From positions 64,001 to 128,000 of the IMG/VR virus record IMGVR_UViG_3300027763_000027: a DNA stretch of 64,000 nt; one strand, 5' to 3'. Below, piece by piece: positions 6,271 to 12,992 of the stretch. Position numbers and translations under genes: made by a program. The notes under the pieces were generated by a model. It was not told the DNA's origin and made no database searches. It saw only the letters and a list, made by a program, of their open reading frames with translations. This stretch comes from a virus. Within the stretch, counting starts at the first letter, position 1. Every line of letters begins with the position of its first letter.

Positions 6271-6337
6271 AGTAAATACTATTACACATTAAATATAAAA
6301 AATGATATTATAAATTATTAATCTTTGTATTATATCT

Positions 6338-6725
6338 TGGACCCGAGAGGAGTTGAACCTCTGTCTTTTAAAAATCTAAATTAAAATACTACAAGTTTAG
6401 TTCATTTTAATATTTAGCTTCATATAGATAAATAAACAAACATATTCAGCGTATTCTATCTTGAGTATTGCTATCTAAAGAATAGAAAAACTATTAAATA
6501 GCAAACATCTAATTACGCAATATTCCAGTAGATGTGTCGTGGATATCACGCTGTAACTTAAGCTACAGAAGCGGTCTCTTCTACAAGAGAAACTCTTGCA
6601 GAAATATGACCTTTATATTTTGCTGTTTTGGCAGTTAATATAATTGAAACTTTTTAAGGAGTCCTCGATTCAACCTCCACTTGCATTTCAATTTATTTCT
6701 TTAAAATCGAAACCAGTACGGGCCC
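6338..6725 (-). ncRNA. ssrA: tmRNA; tag reading frame 6632-6558 encodes (A)AKTAKYKGHISARVSLVEETASVA*
   Basis: 5' GGGCCCGTACTGGTTTCGA pairs with 3' GACAGAGGTTCAACTCCTCTCGGGTCCA; acceptor stem has the G3-U70 alanine determinant; T arm present; TAACT-GCC resume context; CCA not encoded; 388 nt. Confidence 0.93.
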
Positions 6726-6794
6726 AATGAGAATGAACTATACTATATTATACATTTTATTTGAATTTTGGCAATATTTTTATTAAGATTAAAT

Positions 6795-6986
6795 ATGGTA
6801 CTACAAGATAAAATATTAAACCTATTAGATCAAATTATTGAAAAGAATATATTGGAAGATTCAATTAATAAAAAGCCAATTGAATCTGGAGATAATTGGA
6901 ACGTATTTTATTTAAAAGTTTTAAAAAATTTGTTACAAGAATTATTTGACAAAAAACAAAATAAAGAGTATTATAAGATCACATAG
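6795..6986 (+). CDS. Small hypothetical protein
   Basis: ATG 6795 follows TTGAAT-N17-TAAGAT; more plausible than the TTG at 6768. Confidence 0.55.
   Translation: MVLQDKILNLLDQIIEKNILEDSINKKPIESGDNWNVFYLKVLKNLLQELFDKKQNKEYYKIT
6946..6974 (+). promoter_or_regulatory. Sigma70-type promoter facing an ORF-free structured region
   Basis: TTGACA (6946-51), N17, TATTAT (6969-74). Confidence 0.7.
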
Positions 6987-7310
6987 TCCCCTATTAGGAC
7001 AGTTTATTGATACCAAAAAATCAATTATCAATCCCTGAGATAGCAATGTCCCAAGGGCTGACAACTATTAAAACCTTCATTTGTACATAACATGGCTAAA
7101 GAAGGAAATGTAGCTATAGGCATCGCAGAATGTAGTGATCGAAGCTACCTCTGATCCGTAAGTGCGATGGCCCTTTGTTGCTGAGATCGCAACAAATTTG
7201 GAGTTAAAAGAAAAGTTGGATTGATAATACTCAACCTCAGACTATAATAATCTAGAGGTAAAGCCCTTTTGGATATTAAAGAAAAGTTAAATAATTCAGA
7301 GAAGGACACT
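6981..7310 (+). ncRNA. Candidate structured ncRNA of unknown class
   Basis: No ORF in track; 11-bp perfect long-range helix 7024-34/7218-28; stems 7121-27/7163-69 and 7174-81/7189-96; GCAA-capped hairpin 7033-57. Confidence 0.55.
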
Positions 7311-7315
7311 AGATA

Positions 7316-8221
7316 TCACTTATCTAATATAGAATATAATTGATTCTTAATTTCTTGAGATTTTGTTTTCGCTATAATTAGACTCGATTCAATATTTTCT
7401 GTATACTTGCCTTCTAGAATTTTTTTTATTTCTAAAGATATATTTTCTGCTGTAGCATTTTCTCCGATCAATAAAGCTGGCCAATTTATTGATTCAGTTT
7501 GTCTTCTAACTTTATGTCCACCACCAATAGGATCGATTGCTAATACTGGAATTTTATTTTTCAATGAATAAACGATTCCATGTAATCTAGTGCTTATTAT
7601 TGCATCACATTTACATATAAGTGATTCTAAGATATCAGAAGAATAAACTCTTGTTCTGTTTTTATTTTTTTCTGTTGTTATAGTTGTGTCTATGTCTATT
7701 CTTGCAAATTTTTCTTTATCAAAAAAATTCCATACTTCTTTTTTAATGTTTTCATGATATCTTATACCTCCCGAGCAGCGACCATTTAGATGAACTAGTA
7801 AAACACCTATGACGGGAACTTTTTTATTTTTTATGTTAAAAACTAAATCTGGATTTTTTATAGTAGTTGAATCTCTTGCTACGATATAATCCACATAACC
7901 ATTATAAGTACTAATGTCGTCTCTAGAAATCGTAGTGTTTATAGCAATTTTTTTACAATGCGAAAAGTCATTAATAATATCTAATGGGCGAAAAGAGCTA
8001 GTACCAAATGGCCCACATACATAAAATAATATATTGTATATTTTTGGATTAATTTCATTAAATTTTATACTTTTTTTAGAACAACTCACTTCATTAACGA
8101 TATCATATTCTATATTTTTTTCAGTAAGCCAAGAAGCTACTACTTGTGCTGCTTGAACGTCTCCAAATGTACAAGCTCTATCTCTTACTCCAAAAGGCCC
8201 AAATATTAAAGCTCTATTCAT
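7316..8221 (-). CDS. Polysaccharide pyruvyl transferase family protein
   Basis: TFGD near N terminus, ARD, PDLVF, ISTRLHGIVYSL motifs. Confidence 0.75.
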   Translation of the reverse strand: MNRALIFGPFGVRDRACTFGDVQAAQVVASWLTEKNIEYDIVNEVSCSKKSIKFNEINPKIYNILFYVCGPFGTSSFRPLDIINDFSHCKKIAINTTISRDDISTYNGYVDYIVARDSTTIKNPDLVFNIKNKKVPVIGVLLVHLNGRCSGGIRYHENIKKEVWNFFDKEKFARIDIDTTITTEKNKNRTRVYSSDILESLICKCDAIISTRLHGIVYSLKNKIPVLAIDPIGGGHKVRRQTESINWPALLIGENATAENISLEIKKILEGKYTENIESSLIIAKTKSQEIKNQLYSILDK

Positions 8222-10736: not shown

Positions 10737-12992
10737 CTATAGTTTACACGCTCCACTAGAACAATCTCTATCTTCTTTTTGATTTAATGATTGCTCTTTA
10801 TCTCCGTCATCTGTGTTATTGTAATACAAACTAATCAAACCTAAACTATAAGCATAAATCAATTCTTTCATAACTTTTGCGTCTGGAAGAATATTATTTT
10901 CATAATGACTATAATTGTAGTATACATTAGTTGATATAGCCATGTCAATATATTTTTGAATTACTGCATTAATTTTAAGTAATCCGCTATTATCTTTTAA
11001 ATCATATGCTAATTCATAATTTTCGTCATACTTTCCAATCCCTGGAACCATAACTGGAAGTTTACCCATTTTACTAGTTTTATATGTTATAAGGCTACGA
11101 ATAGGCTCTACTCCATTTGTTGAGCATTGAATTACAGAACTGCTTTCGCATGGCATACAAGAAGATAATGTAGAATGTCTTAATCCAAATTCTTTGATAT
11201 CTTTTCTTAGTTTCTCCCAATCAAGCGATAGTTTTCTTTTAACTAGCTCATCCACTTTATCTTTGTAAGTATCAATAGGAAGTATGCCTTTGGAGTATTT
11301 AGTTCTATCAAACTTCTCGCACTTGCCTTTTTCTTTAGCTATTTCAATACTACTTTTTAATAAATAATATTGAAAATGCTCCATCCATTCGTCAACAGCT
11401 AGTAATGATTTATCAGAACTATATTTTAATTCATTTTTAGCAAGAAAAGCTGCGAGATTAGTAATTCCAACACCAAGGCTTCTACGTTTTTTAGCAAAAT
11501 TTTCAGCAGCAACATTAAAGTAATCTTGAAGCTCAATGATTTCATCAAGAAATCTTACGATAAGATCGCAAGTCTTTTCAAGATCTTGCCAGTTTTTTAT
11601 TTCTAGCATATTTACTGCCGAAAGAATACACATTCCAATTTCCCCATCCTTGTCATTGTAATCATTCAATGGAATAGTTGGATGGATAACTTCAGTACAA
11701 AGATTACTCATAGTAACTTTATCTAACCAAGCTCCATGATTATTCGCGTGATCAACATTTAATATATAGATACGGCCAGTTTCAACTCTTTCTTTTATTA
11801 TAAGAGAGAACAATTTACGAGCAGATATTTTCTTTTTAATCTTTAATTTTTTAGATTCACACTCTTTATATACTTTATCAAAGTCTTTAGTTCCCCATGC
11901 TTCGTAAAGCTCTGGAACTTCTGAATTGTTAAATAGAGTGATATCTTCATCTTTTAATACTCTATCATAAAATAGCTTACTCATTCCAATTGTATAGTCA
12001 AGTTTACGAACTCTATTATCGTCTGTTCCAGCATTATTCTTCAACACTACGACATCTTCAATTTCATAATGCCACCATTGAATATTACAAGTTGCACTTC
12101 CACCTCTTAATCCATTTTGTTGCCATGCTTTTACGCTACTCTCATAAATTTTTAAGAATGGAATTAACCCAGTATGAACAACTTCTCCATTTTTGATAGG
12201 AGAACCAATTGCTCTTATTTTACTTACATCAATACCAATTCCACATCTATTAGCAGTAGCCATACTCACAGCCGTGGCACTAGCTGTAATACTTTCTCTA
12301 GTATCATCAACACCGATCAAACAACAACTAGCATAATTTCTGCTAGAAGTTCTAACTCCTGCCATAACTGGAGTTGGTAAATTGATCTTATGCTTACTTA
12401 CAGCATCATAAAATCTTCTTACATAATTAAGTCTTGTTTCAACTGGATATTTGGCAAACGCATAAGCTGCAATTAATACATAAGCGAATTGTGGAGTTTC
12501 ATAAATTTTTCCAGTAGTTCTATTTTTGATTAAATATTTATCACAAAGCTGTTTAATTCCAGCGTAAGTAAAGATGTAATCTCTTTCATGATCAATGAAT
12601 TCTCCAATCTTATTAATTTCATCCTCAGAATATGAATTGAAAATGCTATCATCATAAATCTTATTTTTAATACTTTCTTTTAAAAATTCTAATAACCTTG
12701 GAGCATGCTTACCTTTCCAAACATCTTTTCTTAATTGATAATTCAACAATCTTCCAGCTACAAATTGATAATTTGGTTTTTTAATAGAAATTAAATTCGC
12801 AGCACTTTCAATTAAAAGGTTATGTATCTCTTTTGAAGTAATACCTTCGTGGATATTTATTTTAGCATTGATTTCGATATCAGTAAGACTTACTTCACTT
12901 AAACCATTAACAGCCCATGCAATTACTTTATTTATCTTTTCTATGTTAAATTTTTCAAATGTTCCATTTCTTTTTTTGATTTTAATATTCAT
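10737..12992 (-). CDS. nrdA: Ribonucleotide reductase class Ia alpha subunit with ATP cone
   Basis: N-terminal IKKRNG ATP cone; PTPVMAG, SCC, SNLCTE, MPCESSS; C-terminal CSSGACKL. Confidence 0.98.
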   Translation of the reverse strand: MNIKIKKRNGTFEKFNIEKINKVIAWAVNGLSEVSLTDIEINAKINIHEGITSKEIHNLLIESAANLISIKKPNYQFVAGRLLNYQLRKDVWKGKHAPRLLEFLKESIKNKIYDDSIFNSYSEDEINKIGEFIDHERDYIFTYAGIKQLCDKYLIKNRTTGKIYETPQFAYVLIAAYAFAKYPVETRLNYVRRFYDAVSKHKINLPTPVMAGVRTSSRNYASCCLIGVDDTRESITASATAVSMATANRCGIGIDVSKIRAIGSPIKNGEVVHTGLIPFLKIYESSVKAWQQNGLRGGSATCNIQWWHYEIEDVVVLKNNAGTDDNRVRKLDYTIGMSKLFYDRVLKDEDITLFNNSEVPELYEAWGTKDFDKVYKECESKKLKIKKKISARKLFSLIIKERVETGRIYILNVDHANNHGAWLDKVTMSNLCTEVIHPTIPLNDYNDKDGEIGMCILSAVNMLEIKNWQDLEKTCDLIVRFLDEIIELQDYFNVAAENFAKKRRSLGVGITNLAAFLAKNELKYSSDKSLLAVDEWMEHFQYYLLKSSIEIAKEKGKCEKFDRTKYSKGILPIDTYKDKVDELVKRKLSLDWEKLRKDIKEFGLRHSTLSSCMPCESSSVIQCSTNGVEPIRSLITYKTSKMGKLPVMVPGIGKYDENYELAYDLKDNSGLLKINAVIQKYIDMAISTNVYYNYSHYENNILPDAKVMKELIYAYSLGLISLYYNNTDDGDKEQSLNQKEDRDCSSGACKL

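What the first reader, a model, noticed from the sequence alone, without database searches (positions are those of the whole stretch)
6946..7310. Promoter-driven, about 300-nt structured RNA beside the tmRNA
Seen: TTGACA-N17-TATTAT fires into about 330 nt without a tracked ORF in an otherwise densely coding genome. The region has a perfect 11-bp closing helix (ATTATCAATCC 7024-34 / GGATTGATAAT 7218-28), a GCAA-capped hairpin (7033-57), CATCGCA/TGCGATG (7121-27/7163-69), TTTGTTGC/GCAACAAA (7174-81/7189-96), and further 7-bp complementarities able to form pseudoknots or alternative folds (7146-52/7254-60; 7053-59/7262-68). I could not match it by eye to RNase P, SRP or 6S RNA. Inference: a possibly undescribed large phage ncRNA.
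Basis: partly seen in the sequence, partly recalled or inferred. Interest (0 to 1): 0.75.

Follow-up and report, generated by a model that had tools for sequence, protein, structure and literature searches.

The report
New structured RNA gene in lake phages
A roughly 310-base stretch of this 172-kb freshwater phage is a separately transcribed, intricately folded non-coding RNA that matches no catalogued RNA family, and relatives of it occur in many related uncultured phages, so it looks like a new RNA class whose job is still unknown.

Summary
The finding holds. Window 6981-7289 (+) is a non-coding RNA gene. It has a promoter whose layout is the same in all four clades: TTGACA, 17 nt, TAnnAT, about 6 nt, then ACATA(G/C).

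Conservation begins at the predicted start site and ends at ...AAAGAAAAGTTA. The flanking genes differ between relatives.

A covariance model found full-length homologues in dozens of uncultured freshwater phage contigs, in four clades (A-D).

- **Structure:** On a structure-blind MAFFT alignment, 87% of cells pair, against 31-46% in slid controls. 30 of 49 pairs show compensatory changes.
Two proposals are not supported: the GCAA hairpin and 7146-52/7254-60.
- **Known families:** No Rfam 15 family matches any clade at E<=10. The genome has no reverse transcriptase, SmpB, Ro, RtcB, ToxN, CsrA, Hfq or S21.
- **tmRNA linkage:** It holds only in clades A and C. In B and D the RNA lies just upstream of nrdA.
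- **Twin motifs:** Two single-stranded 17-nt motifs change in parallel across clades and have no complementary partner in the RNA or the genome.

The most likely role is a trans-acting scaffold or decoy that binds two copies of one partner. Function is inferred, not shown. The scan had already noted this same stretch in an overlapping window.

The parts
6946..6974 (+). Sigma-70-type promoter: -35 TTGACA (6946-6951), 17-nt spacer, -10 TATTAT (6969-6974)
   Evidence: 11 of 12 consensus; the -35 is TTGACA in nearly all distinct relatives of clades A-D (one clade-D member, L084, lacks it). The -10 is TAnnAT. Spacer length stays nearly constant (16-18 nt) while its sequence varies freely. The distance to ACATA is about 6 nt; the overlapping ORF is not conserved, so these bases are not kept as codons.
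6981..7289 (+). The RNA itself, about 310 nt, from the predicted start ACAUAG to the last conserved bases AAAGAAAAGUUA
   Evidence: Full-length covariance-model matches are. GC is 0.41-0.45 against 0.2-0.3 in the surroundings. The true 3' end is not determined.
6986..7000 (+). H1 hairpin (6986-89/6997-7000) with conserved loop CCUAUUA
   Evidence: All 4 pairs show compensatory changes and 100% of cells pair. The arms read GUCC/GGAC, GCUU/AAGC, GCCU/AGGC and CCGC/GCGG in the four clades.
7006..7025 (+). H2 hairpin (7006-11/7020-25)
   Evidence: A-U changes to G-C at 7006/7025. RNAalifold recovers it de novo on the MAFFT alignment, with compensatory changes.
7026..7034 (+). H3, 5' strand of the long-range closing helix (pairs with 7218-7226)
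   Evidence: All 9 pairs are compensatory on A3 and 7 of 9 on the structure-blind A4. RNAalifold predicts it de novo.
7040..7068 (+). H4 hairpin (7040-43/7065-68 and 7047-50/7060-63), with the near-invariant internal loop G-CAA-YG / CRAC. Its loop carries the 5' strand of pseudoknot 1 (7053-59).
   Evidence: Position 7047/7063 is U-A in 18 sequences and C-G in 13 within clade A.
7074..7105 (+). H5 hairpin (7074-78/7101-05, inner pairs 7083-88/7092-96)
   Evidence: Position 7078/7101 reads C-G, A-U and U-A within clade A. 4 of 5 pairs are compensatory across clades.
7110..7114 (+). Pseudoknot 2, 5' strand GUAGC. It pairs with GCUAC (7144-48) in the loop of H8'.
   Evidence: This helix was not in the covariance model. 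96.8% of cells pair on A3, with GUAGC/GCUAC, GUAGG/CCUAC and GUGG/CCAC variants. RNAalifold found it de novo on A4.
7121..7169 (+). Core stem-loop: H7 (7121-27/7163-69) encloses H8' (7137-40/7153-56). The 12-nt loop of H8' holds the conserved CUACC.
   Evidence: For H7, 5 of 7 pairs are compensatory. For H8', 3 of 4 are. Swapping my first guess for H8' raised the model scores of every divergent clade. Bases 7105-7173 are identical in all 36 clade-A contigs.
7174..7196 (+). H9 hairpin (7174-81/7189-96). It is capped by a GNRA tetraloop in clades C and D.
   Evidence: 5 of 8 pairs are compensatory within clade A. GAAA and GCAA loops are visible.
7200..7216 (+). Twin motif, copy 1: GGAGUUAAAAGAAAAGU, a single-stranded junction strand
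   Evidence: It is invariant or changes in parallel with copy 2.
7218..7226 (+). H3, 3' strand
   Evidence: See the H3 5' strand.
7234..7259 (+). H10 hairpin (7234-41/7251-59) with a variable AU-rich loop
   Evidence: One search shows wobble changes and one compensatory change, with a free loop sequence. A hairpin sits at this place in all clades. Its alignment between clades is poor.
7262..7268 (+). Pseudoknot 1, 3' strand AGCCCUU, preceded by the conserved GG(U/G)AAAG
   Evidence: It pairs with 7053-59. The partners read AAGGGCU/AGCCCUU, CAGGCU/AGCCUG, GAAGACU/AGUCUUC and CGGAGCU/AGCUCCG in the four clades. 5 of 7 pairs are compensatory on A3.
7271..7287 (+). Twin motif, copy 2: GGAUAUUAAAGAAAAGU, in the 3' tail
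6335..6725 (-). Neighbouring one-piece tmRNA gene (context, not part of the RNA)
   Evidence: ARAGORN. Rfam RF00023 at 114 bits. It is adjacent and divergent in clades A and C, and 6-12 kb away in B and D.

Best explanation
**What is shown**
Window 6981-7289 (+) is an independent gene for a structured non-coding RNA of about 310 nt. It belongs to a family absent from Rfam 15. So far the family is found only in one lineage of AT-rich freshwater phages of roughly 130-170 kb. There is one copy per genome.

The RNA has its own host-type (sigma-70-like) promoter. It folds into a multi-helix junction closed by the long-range helix 7026-34/7218-26. Two pseudoknots tie hairpin loops to distant single strands: 7053-59/7262-68 and 7110-14/7144-48.

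**What is inferred**
- Host RNA polymerase transcribes it early in infection.
- It acts in trans, not on a neighbouring gene.
- The rigid double-pseudoknot scaffold displays two nearly identical single-stranded 17-nt motifs (7200-16 and 7271-87).
- These motifs bind two copies, or two subunits, of the same partner. The RNA would then work as a decoy, sponge or ribonucleoprotein scaffold.

The partner is most likely a protein, because no complementary RNA site exists in the RNA or in the phage genome. Its identity is unknown.
For: **Gene and promoter**
- The promoter layout is the same in all four clades, and nearly every member has TTGACA, while the spacer sequence varies.
- Conservation starts at the predicted +1. 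The flanks diverge and carry different genes in different relatives.
- No ORF is conserved. L001 has a stop in the only 20-codon frame.

**Structure**
- On A3, 95.5% of cells pair, 37 of 49 pairs are compensatory, and 0 of 500 shuffles reach the observed values.
- On the structure-blind MAFFT alignment A4, 87.2% of cells pair against 31-46% when slid, and 30 of 49 pairs are compensatory.
- RNAalifold recovers H2, H3, H4 and pseudoknot 2 de novo.
- Both pseudoknots covary although neither was in the covariance model.

**Strand and copy number**
- G-U pairs fit only the + strand.
- There is one copy in the complete 171,916-bp genome.

**Acting in trans**
- In clades A and C the next gene is convergent, so there is nothing downstream to regulate in cis.
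- The RNA keeps its own promoter at two different genomic sites.

**Twin sites**
- The two motifs change in parallel at 7199/7270 (U, A or G) and at 7205/7277 (C or U).
- In clade D the block AAAGAA becomes AUUGGG in both copies. In L084 the same U-to-C change occurs in both.
- No column in the RNA is complementary to these changes.
- No complementary site with 3 or fewer mismatches exists in the whole genome. In five clade-D contigs the exact motif occurs only as the two copies in the RNA; no exact antisense match was found.
Against: - Transcription, RNA ends and stability were not observed. No transcriptome data were available, and all 48 metagenome hits are genomic contigs.
- The window shows no clear intrinsic terminator after 7289. 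An AT-rich hairpin with a U-run does follow in a typical clade-A relative (L066).
- No candidate partner protein was found. The genome lacks Hfq, CsrA, Ro/TROVE, SmpB, RtcB, S21, ToxN and reverse transcriptase.
- Parallel change of two short motifs could also come from gene conversion or from a shared structural role.
- In clades B and D the RNA lies 116 nt upstream of nrdA on the same strand. That layout fits a cis-acting leader.
- The clades are few and related, so parallel changes are counted over a small number of independent events.
Confidence: 0.5

Rival explanations
1. It is a cis-acting sensor (riboswitch or attenuator) for the ribonucleotide reductase operon. In clades B and D it would be the sense leader of nrdAB. 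In clades A and C, transcription reading through it would produce antisense RNA against the 3' end of the convergent operon that contains nrdAB.
For: - In B and D the RNA ends 116 nt before nrdA on the same strand.
- In A and C it points into the end of the minus-strand gene string that ends with nrdB and nrdA.
- The RNA always lies within a few kb of nrdAB.
- An invariant core with pseudoknots is typical of ligand pockets.
- From my own knowledge: riboswitches upstream of RNR genes (cobalamin, 2'-deoxyguanosine) and riboswitch-controlled antisense transcripts are known.
Against: - No conserved terminator/antiterminator or ribosome-binding-site sequestering alternative was found at the 3' end.
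- The conserved part ends in a single-stranded motif.
- nrdA keeps a similar T-rich upstream segment whether or not the RNA is present, which suggests a promoter region of its own.
- In A and C the genes between the RNA and nrdB vary or even run the other way.
- More distant phages with NrdB at 40-64% identity have no room for such a leader; their gaps are 0-100 nt.
- No riboswitch family matches.
Confidence: 0.12
2. It is a ribozyme. One example would be an RNA-processing catalyst for the phage's tmRNA and four tRNAs, as a reduced or rearranged RNase P-like RNA. Another would be a different catalytic RNA.
For: - The size, the long-range helix, the two pseudoknots, the GNRA-capped hairpins and the 69-nt core identical across clade A are features common in ribozymes.
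- The phage carries a tmRNA and four tRNAs that need 5' processing.
- GAGGUAAAG-CCC before pseudoknot 1 loosely recalls the RNase P CR-I/P4 strand (my own comparison from memory, a lead only).
- The gene is adjacent to the tmRNA in clades A and C.
Against: - No RNase P model (bacterial A or B, archaeal, or type T) gives any hit at E<=10 in three clades.
- The P4-like strands are in the reverse order.
- The GGAAA stretch near 7103 is not conserved in clades B-D.
- Hosts already have RNase P.
- tmRNA adjacency is lost in clades B and D.
Confidence: 0.08
3. It is an anti-defence decoy of the type III antitoxin kind. The two A-rich motifs would be cleavage or binding sites for a host endoribonuclease toxin, which the RNA neutralises.
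For: - Two repeated A-rich single-stranded motifs each follow a structured module, 71 nt apart.
- The RNA is pseudoknotted.
- The promoter is an early host-type one.
- Parallel change of both motifs between phage clades would fit adaptation to different host toxins.
- From my own knowledge: phages are known to carry pseudo-ToxI RNAs.
Against: - The RNA is not an array of tandem 34-45-nt repeats. Only the 17-nt motif is duplicated.
- No ToxN-like gene is in the phage. That search had no positive control, so it carries little weight.
- The 200 nt of conserved non-repeated scaffold has no counterpart in known antitoxin RNAs.
Confidence: 0.08
4. It is a self-assembling 'ornate' RNA like ROOL or GOLLD. 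Those are phage-borne, lie next to t(m)RNA genes, and form homo-oligomeric particles.
For: - It is phage-borne, next to a tRNA-like gene in two clades, multi-pseudoknotted, and of unknown function.
- The cryo-EM paper listed (bioRxiv 10.1101/2024.12.08.627333) reports RNA-only complexes for such RNAs.
Against: - It is half the size or less of those RNAs.
- No Rfam match to ROOL, GOLLD, OLE or raiA was found.
- No consistently palindromic loop is present that could drive self-association.
Confidence: 0.05
5. It is not an RNA gene at all, but a conserved DNA element (an origin, packaging site or recombination site) or a small protein gene.
For: - Nucleotide conservation is extreme, and many metagenome assemblies break at this spot.
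- A 54-aa minus-strand ORF (7145-7309) and a 20-codon plus-strand frame exist in the window.
Against: - Compensatory changes are strand-specific and include G-U pairs.
- The promoter sits at a fixed distance.
- Substitutions show no codon periodicity, and stops appear in relatives.
- The assembly breaks are explained by variable flanks around a conserved core.
Confidence: 0.03

Closest known systems
ROOL and GOLLD large phage-associated ncRNAs (Rfam families; Weinberg et al. 2009 and 2017; cryo-EM preprint 10.1101/2024.12.08.627333)
   Same: Both are carried by phages, often beside tRNA-type genes. Both are large for a bacterial ncRNA, have several pseudoknots and strong covariation, and have no known function.
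   Different: There is no sequence or structure match at E<=10. This RNA is about 310 nt, against roughly 580 and 800 nt. It has twin single-stranded motifs. It is found only in one freshwater phage lineage, and nothing points to oligomerisation.
Protein-sequestering RNAs (6S RNA; CsrB/RsmZ)
   Same: These are trans-acting, strongly expressed RNAs that present repeated or mimic sites to titrate a protein. That is the mechanism I favour here.
   Different: 6S is one long hairpin with a central bubble. CsrB carries many GGA motifs in hairpin loops. Here there are two sites on a pseudoknotted junction. No Rfam hit was found, and the phage has no CsrA or Hfq gene.
Type III antitoxin RNAs (ToxI, CptI) and phage pseudo-ToxI
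   Same: They have repeated A-rich sites and a pseudoknotted RNA, and phages use them against host toxins.
   Different: Those are tandem arrays of 34-45-nt repeats that the toxin processes. This RNA is a single large fold with only a 17-nt duplication and no ToxN partner.
Bacterial RNase P RNA
   Same: The size is similar. Both have a long-range helix and a pseudoknot flanked by conserved A-rich strands. Both have a functional link to tRNA-like substrates.
   Different: The helix order differs and CR-I/CR-V are not conserved across clades. No hit was found to any RNase P model.
Riboswitches upstream of ribonucleotide reductase genes (cobalamin; 2'-deoxyguanosine)
   Same: In clades B and D the RNA sits directly upstream of nrdA on the same strand.
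   Different: There is no match to those families and no expression platform. In clades A and C the RNA has no downstream gene.

Membership tests
Any Rfam 15 family (4227 models) | Score at or above the family's gathering threshold | tested here: not met
   One search covered the whole window: only the tmRNA and two tRNAs scored. At E<=10, only noise of 18 bits or less against gathering scores of 37 bits or more appeared. Clade D gave nothing. Whole loci of clades B, C and D gave only the tmRNA.
RNase P RNA | Conserved CR-I (GAGGAAAGUCC) and CR-V strands forming P4, with CR-I on the 5' side | tested here: not met
   No RNase P model hit. The GGAAA at 7103-07 becomes GAUGAAA, UUAA or GGGAG in clades B-D. 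The P4-like strands of pseudoknot 1 are in reverse order.
RNase P RNA | Cleaves pre-tRNA 5' leaders | not testable with these tools
   This needs an in vitro assay.
tmRNA (a second piece or a second copy) | A tRNA-like acceptor/T-arm domain and a tag reading frame | tested here: not met
   ARAGORN and RF00023 find only the complete one-piece tmRNA at 6335-6725, matching model positions 1-374. Nothing is found in 6946-7310.
6S RNA | A single extended hairpin with a large central bubble that mimics an open promoter | tested here: not met
   The covariation-supported fold is a multi-branch junction with pseudoknots. No Rfam 6S hit was found.
Group I intron | A P3-P9 core including the P3/P7 pseudoknot, inserted in a gene with flanking exons | tested here: not met
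   No RF00028 hit. The upstream ORF is not conserved, and the downstream gene is on the opposite strand. The helix order differs.
Retron or DGR non-coding RNA | An adjacent reverse transcriptase; for a DGR, a template repeat matching a variable repeat | tested here: not met
   No RVT_1 domain in the complete genome. The RNA has no repeat elsewhere in the window.
Y RNA / YrlA | A Ro60 (TROVE) partner and a tRNA-like module | tested here: not met
   No TROVE or RtcB in the genome. No Rfam hit. ARAGORN finds no tRNA-like module.
Type III antitoxin RNA (ToxI-like) | Tandem direct repeats of 34-45 nt next to a ToxN-family gene | tested here: not met
   Only a 17-nt motif is duplicated, 71 nt apart. 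The ToxN search found nothing, but it had no positive control, so the gene part is inconclusive.
CsrB/Rsm-type sponge | Many GGA motifs in hairpin loops, with CsrA present | tested here: not met
   About five GGA motifs are present, mostly in junction strands. No Rfam hit. The phage has no CsrA. Host CsrA is unknown.
Riboswitch (generic) | A conserved aptamer followed by an expression platform that controls a downstream gene in cis | tested here: inconclusive
   A downstream co-oriented gene exists only in clades B and D. No terminator or antiterminator was found. Ligand binding cannot be tested here.

The most novel reading that the evidence does not exclude
The RNA is the first member of a new functional class of phage RNA with an activity of its own. 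It would be either a ligand-sensing RNA or a catalytic RNA. A ligand sensor would control the ribonucleotide reductase operon from the sense side in some phages and from the antisense side in others. The evidence does not exclude this: the 69-nt core is invariant, two pseudoknots covary, and the gene stays close to nrdAB and the tmRNA.
Probability: 0.15. Interest if true: 0.9.

Novelty: categorically new. Interest (0 to 1): 0.72.

Why it matters
Large structured RNAs with several covarying pseudoknots are rare. In the past they have turned out to be ribozymes, riboswitches or parts of ribonucleoprotein machines. This one is carried, one copy per genome, by an abundant uncultured lineage of freshwater phages: hundreds of IMG/VR contigs share an NrdB at 80% identity or more. 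In the window's clade its 69-nt core is identical in every contig, while the genes around it are swapped.

The twin motifs that change in step give a concrete experimental handle. Mutating or baiting them should reveal the partner. The work here also supplies a curated structure, four subfamilies and a working covariance model, which is enough to submit a family and to search metatranscriptomes.

One caveat applies. The catalogue of about 10,000 unnamed candidate viral RNAs (Fremin et al. 2023, PMC10690425) may already list this region. I could not check its supplementary files.

Tried and rejected
- **Cultured phages:** blastn of 6300-7400 found nothing. The nearest cultured NrdB is only 42% identical (HTVC008M). 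A 41-kb stretch of HTVC008M around nrdAB gave no model hit.
- **Bacterial genomes:** The exact 23-mer of the core has no match in 185,579 species genomes.
- **My first core helix:** GUAGU/GCUAC (7132-36/7144-48) was wrong. GAUC/GAUC (7137-40/7153-56) with pseudoknot 2 fits all clades and raised the model scores.
- **Terminal helix from RNAalifold:** It proposed 7003-15 with 7272-85 on clade A alone. Clade D has no equivalent, so I rejected it.
- **More distant phages:** Those with NrdB at 40-64% identity show no hit within 6 kb of nrdB and have no long gap before nrdA.
- **DGR or other repeats:** None in the window.
- **Small-ORF reading:** I rejected reading the twin motifs or the core as small ORFs. 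Stops occur in relatives and the frames are not conserved.
- **RNA target for the twin motifs:** I looked in the tmRNA, the nrdA leader, the H1 loop, the whole genome and five clade-D contigs. No covarying complement turned up.
- **Transcript ends:** The metagenome scan meant to catch transcript-sized contigs returned only genomic contigs.
- **Catalogue check:** The supplements of PMC10690425 are not held.
Full report
**1. The observation**

A complete one-piece tmRNA lies at 6335-6725 on the minus strand.

The region 6946-7310 holds only short ORFs. A 72-aa ORF (6768-6986) overlaps the promoter. GC content rises to 0.41-0.45 at 7050-7200, against 0.2-0.3 in the surroundings. Folding energy is only modestly better than shuffles: z = -2.06 on the + strand and -2.33 on the - strand. 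The complementarities alone would therefore not be convincing.

**2. Relatives and boundaries**

An exact 23-mer from the core occurs in 36 IMG/VR contigs and 48 metagenome contigs. It occurs in none of the 185,579 species genomes scanned.

In the alignment of 31 distinct copies (A1), conservation begins at ACATAG (6981). That is about 6 nt after the -10 hexamer, the expected start site. Conservation stops after AAAGAAAAGTTA (7289). Bases 7105-7173 are identical in every copy, while the flanks are about 50-75% identical.

The frame of the 72-aa ORF is interrupted in all but one of the 36 relatives, and the one long frame left bears no resemblance to it. TTGACA is therefore conserved as a promoter element, not as codons. 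The spacer is free in sequence and nearly constant in length, and the -10 is always TAnTAT.

The genes on either side differ among relatives. The window has a pyruvyl transferase where others have a 171-aa ORF. Many assemblies break at this spot. This is what a conserved island between variable flanks would produce.

**3. A wider family**

I built a covariance model from A1. I ran it on loci fetched through the nearby NrdB gene. It found full-length matches in three further clades:

| Clade | Score (bits) |
|---|---|
| A (window's clade) | 369-421 |
| B | 154-169 |
| C | 130-143 |
| D | 49-75 |

All clades have the same promoter layout in front of ACATA(G/C). The complete 171,916-bp genome has one copy.

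Phages whose NrdB is only 40-64% identical have no hit near nrdAB and no room for one. The nearest cultured phage, HTVC008M, has an NrdB only 42% identical, and the 41-kb stretch of it that I searched gave no hit.

**4. Structure**

The divergent clades corrected my first model. The core helix is GAUC/GAUC (7137-40/7153-56). The GCUAC in its loop pairs with GUAGC at 7110-14, forming pseudoknot 2. This change raised the scores of every divergent clade.

The supported fold contains the following elements.

| Element | Coordinates |
|---|---|
| H1 | 6986-89/6997-7000 |
| H2 | 7006-11/7020-25 |
| H3 (long-range) | 7026-34/7218-26 |
| H4 | 7040-50/7060-68 |
| Pseudoknot 1 (H4 loop to 3' tail) | 7053-59/7262-68 |
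| H5 | 7074-78/7101-05 |
| Pseudoknot 2 | 7110-14/7144-48 |
| H7 | 7121-27/7163-69 |
| H8' | 7137-40/7153-56 |
| H9 | 7174-81/7189-96 |
| H10 | 7234-41/7251-59 |

- **Model-derived alignment A3:** 95.5% of cells pair and 37 of 49 pairs show compensatory changes. No shuffle out of 500 reaches the observed percentage paired, compensatory counts or covariation score. Slid controls pair at 31-47%.
- **Pseudoknots:** Neither was part of the model, yet both covary.
- **Structure-blind MAFFT alignment A4:** RNAalifold recovers H2, H3, H4 and pseudoknot 2 by itself. The full structure still gives 87.2% paired, against 31-46% slid, with 30 of 49 compensatory pairs.
- **Strand:** Frequent G-U pairs fix the strand as +.

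For the GCAA hairpin at 7033-57, position 7047 covaries with 7063 instead of 7042. The pairing 7146-52/7254-60 clashes with H10 and pseudoknot 2 and is mismatched in clades B-D.

**5. What it is not**

No Rfam 15 family matches at the gathering threshold or at E<=10, in the window or in clades B, C and D. The genome encodes none of the following:

- reverse transcriptase
- SmpB
- Ro/TROVE
- RtcB
- ToxN (this search had no positive control)
- CsrA
- Hfq
- ribosomal protein S21

There is no repeat of the RNA elsewhere in the window, which argues against a DGR template. The helix order differs from RNase P, group I introns and tmRNA. The RNase-P-like words I noticed are not conserved between clades.

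**6. Context**

In clades A and C the RNA is divergent from a tmRNA about 300 nt away. In clades B and D it lies 116 nt upstream of nrdA on the same strand, and the tmRNA is 6-12 kb away.

The link to the tmRNA is therefore not a constant of the family. Closeness to nrdAB is. In A and C the next gene is convergent, so a simple cis-regulatory role is not possible there.

**7. The twin motifs**

Two single-stranded 17-mers, at 7200-16 and 7271-87, are near-identical and change together across clades.

| Position or block | Change seen in both copies |
|---|---|
| Base before GGA (7199 and 7270) | U in A, A in B, G in C |
| 7205 and 7277 | C, or U (twice independently) |
| Clade D | AAAGAA becomes AUUGGG |
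| L084 | the same U-to-C change |

No column in the RNA is complementary to these changes. No complementary site with 3 or fewer mismatches exists in the 172-kb genome. In five clade-D contigs the exact motif occurs only as the two copies in the RNA, with no exact antisense match.

This is the main clue to mechanism. It suggests two equivalent sites read by the same trans-acting partner.

**8. Mechanism**

- **Shown:** an independent, promoter-equipped, structured RNA gene of a family new to Rfam.
- **Inferred:** early transcription by host polymerase, action in trans, and a double-pseudoknot scaffold that presents two sites for one partner. That partner is probably a protein dimer or two copies of one protein. 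The role would be decoy, sponge or ribonucleoprotein scaffold.

I put this at about 0.5. The rivals are:

| Rival | Confidence |
|---|---|
| nrdAB sensor acting in sense (B, D) or antisense (A, C) | 0.12 |
| Ribozyme | 0.08 |
| Antitoxin-like anti-defence decoy | 0.08 |
| Self-assembling RNA of the ROOL/GOLLD kind | 0.05 |
| Not an RNA gene | 0.03 |

**9. Novelty**

The RNA matches no catalogued family, and its architecture is not that of any class I could test. The general category already exists: orphan large structured RNAs in phages.

The 2023 catalogue of about 10,000 unnamed viral candidates (PMC10690425) may include this locus. I could not check. The scan's own notes show that the same stretch was flagged before in an overlapping window of the same genome.

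Noticed in passing
window 6335-6725 (-): The phage tmRNA is one-piece and encodes an unusually long 24-residue tag, AKTAKYKGHISARVSLVEETASVA. Clade C phages carry a different variant ending in LIAA. The genome has no SmpB gene.
   Followed up: partly
window 6768-6986 (+); L001-L036 between RNA and tmRNA: The window's 72-aa ORF overlapping the RNA promoter is unique to it. 29 relatives instead have a ~69-aa ORF on the minus strand in the same intergenic space.
   Followed up: partly
window 7316-8221 (-) and the same position in relatives: The gene just downstream of the RNA is swapped between relatives. It is a polysaccharide pyruvyl transferase here, and a 171-aa ORF or others elsewhere. Many metagenome contigs end inside or beside the RNA, as expected for a conserved core between strain-variable flanks.
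   Followed up: partly
L112:7260-7745, L092:7230-7745 and other clade B/D loci: Where the RNA sits upstream of nrdA, the cassette is bracketed by TACAC(T) motifs. It is followed by a conserved AAATGTTAATAAGAT and a T-run. The window has one GTACAC and a similar T-rich segment before nrdA, but no RNA there. This could be a recombination scar or promoter elements.
   Followed up: no
L112:7270-7298 (-): A second consensus promoter (TTGTCA, 17 nt, TATAAT) faces the other way and overlaps the RNA promoter's -35. It would serve the divergent 247-aa gene.
   Followed up: no
contig of L084 (G004), 12936-12945 (+): A third exact copy of that phage's own motif variant, ACTGGGAAGT, lies 14 kb from the RNA. 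About 0.1 would be expected by chance.
   Followed up: no
L066:11390-11440 (-): In a typical clade-A relative (L066), a 12-bp AT-rich hairpin followed by UUUUUUAUUU lies 10-50 nt after the conserved 3' end. It is a possible terminator that the window lacks.
   Followed up: partly
whole genome G000: The genome is a complete 171,916-bp phage genome with 31% GC. Besides the tmRNA it has four tRNAs: Ile-tat, Met, Leu-taa and Arg-tct.
   Followed up: no
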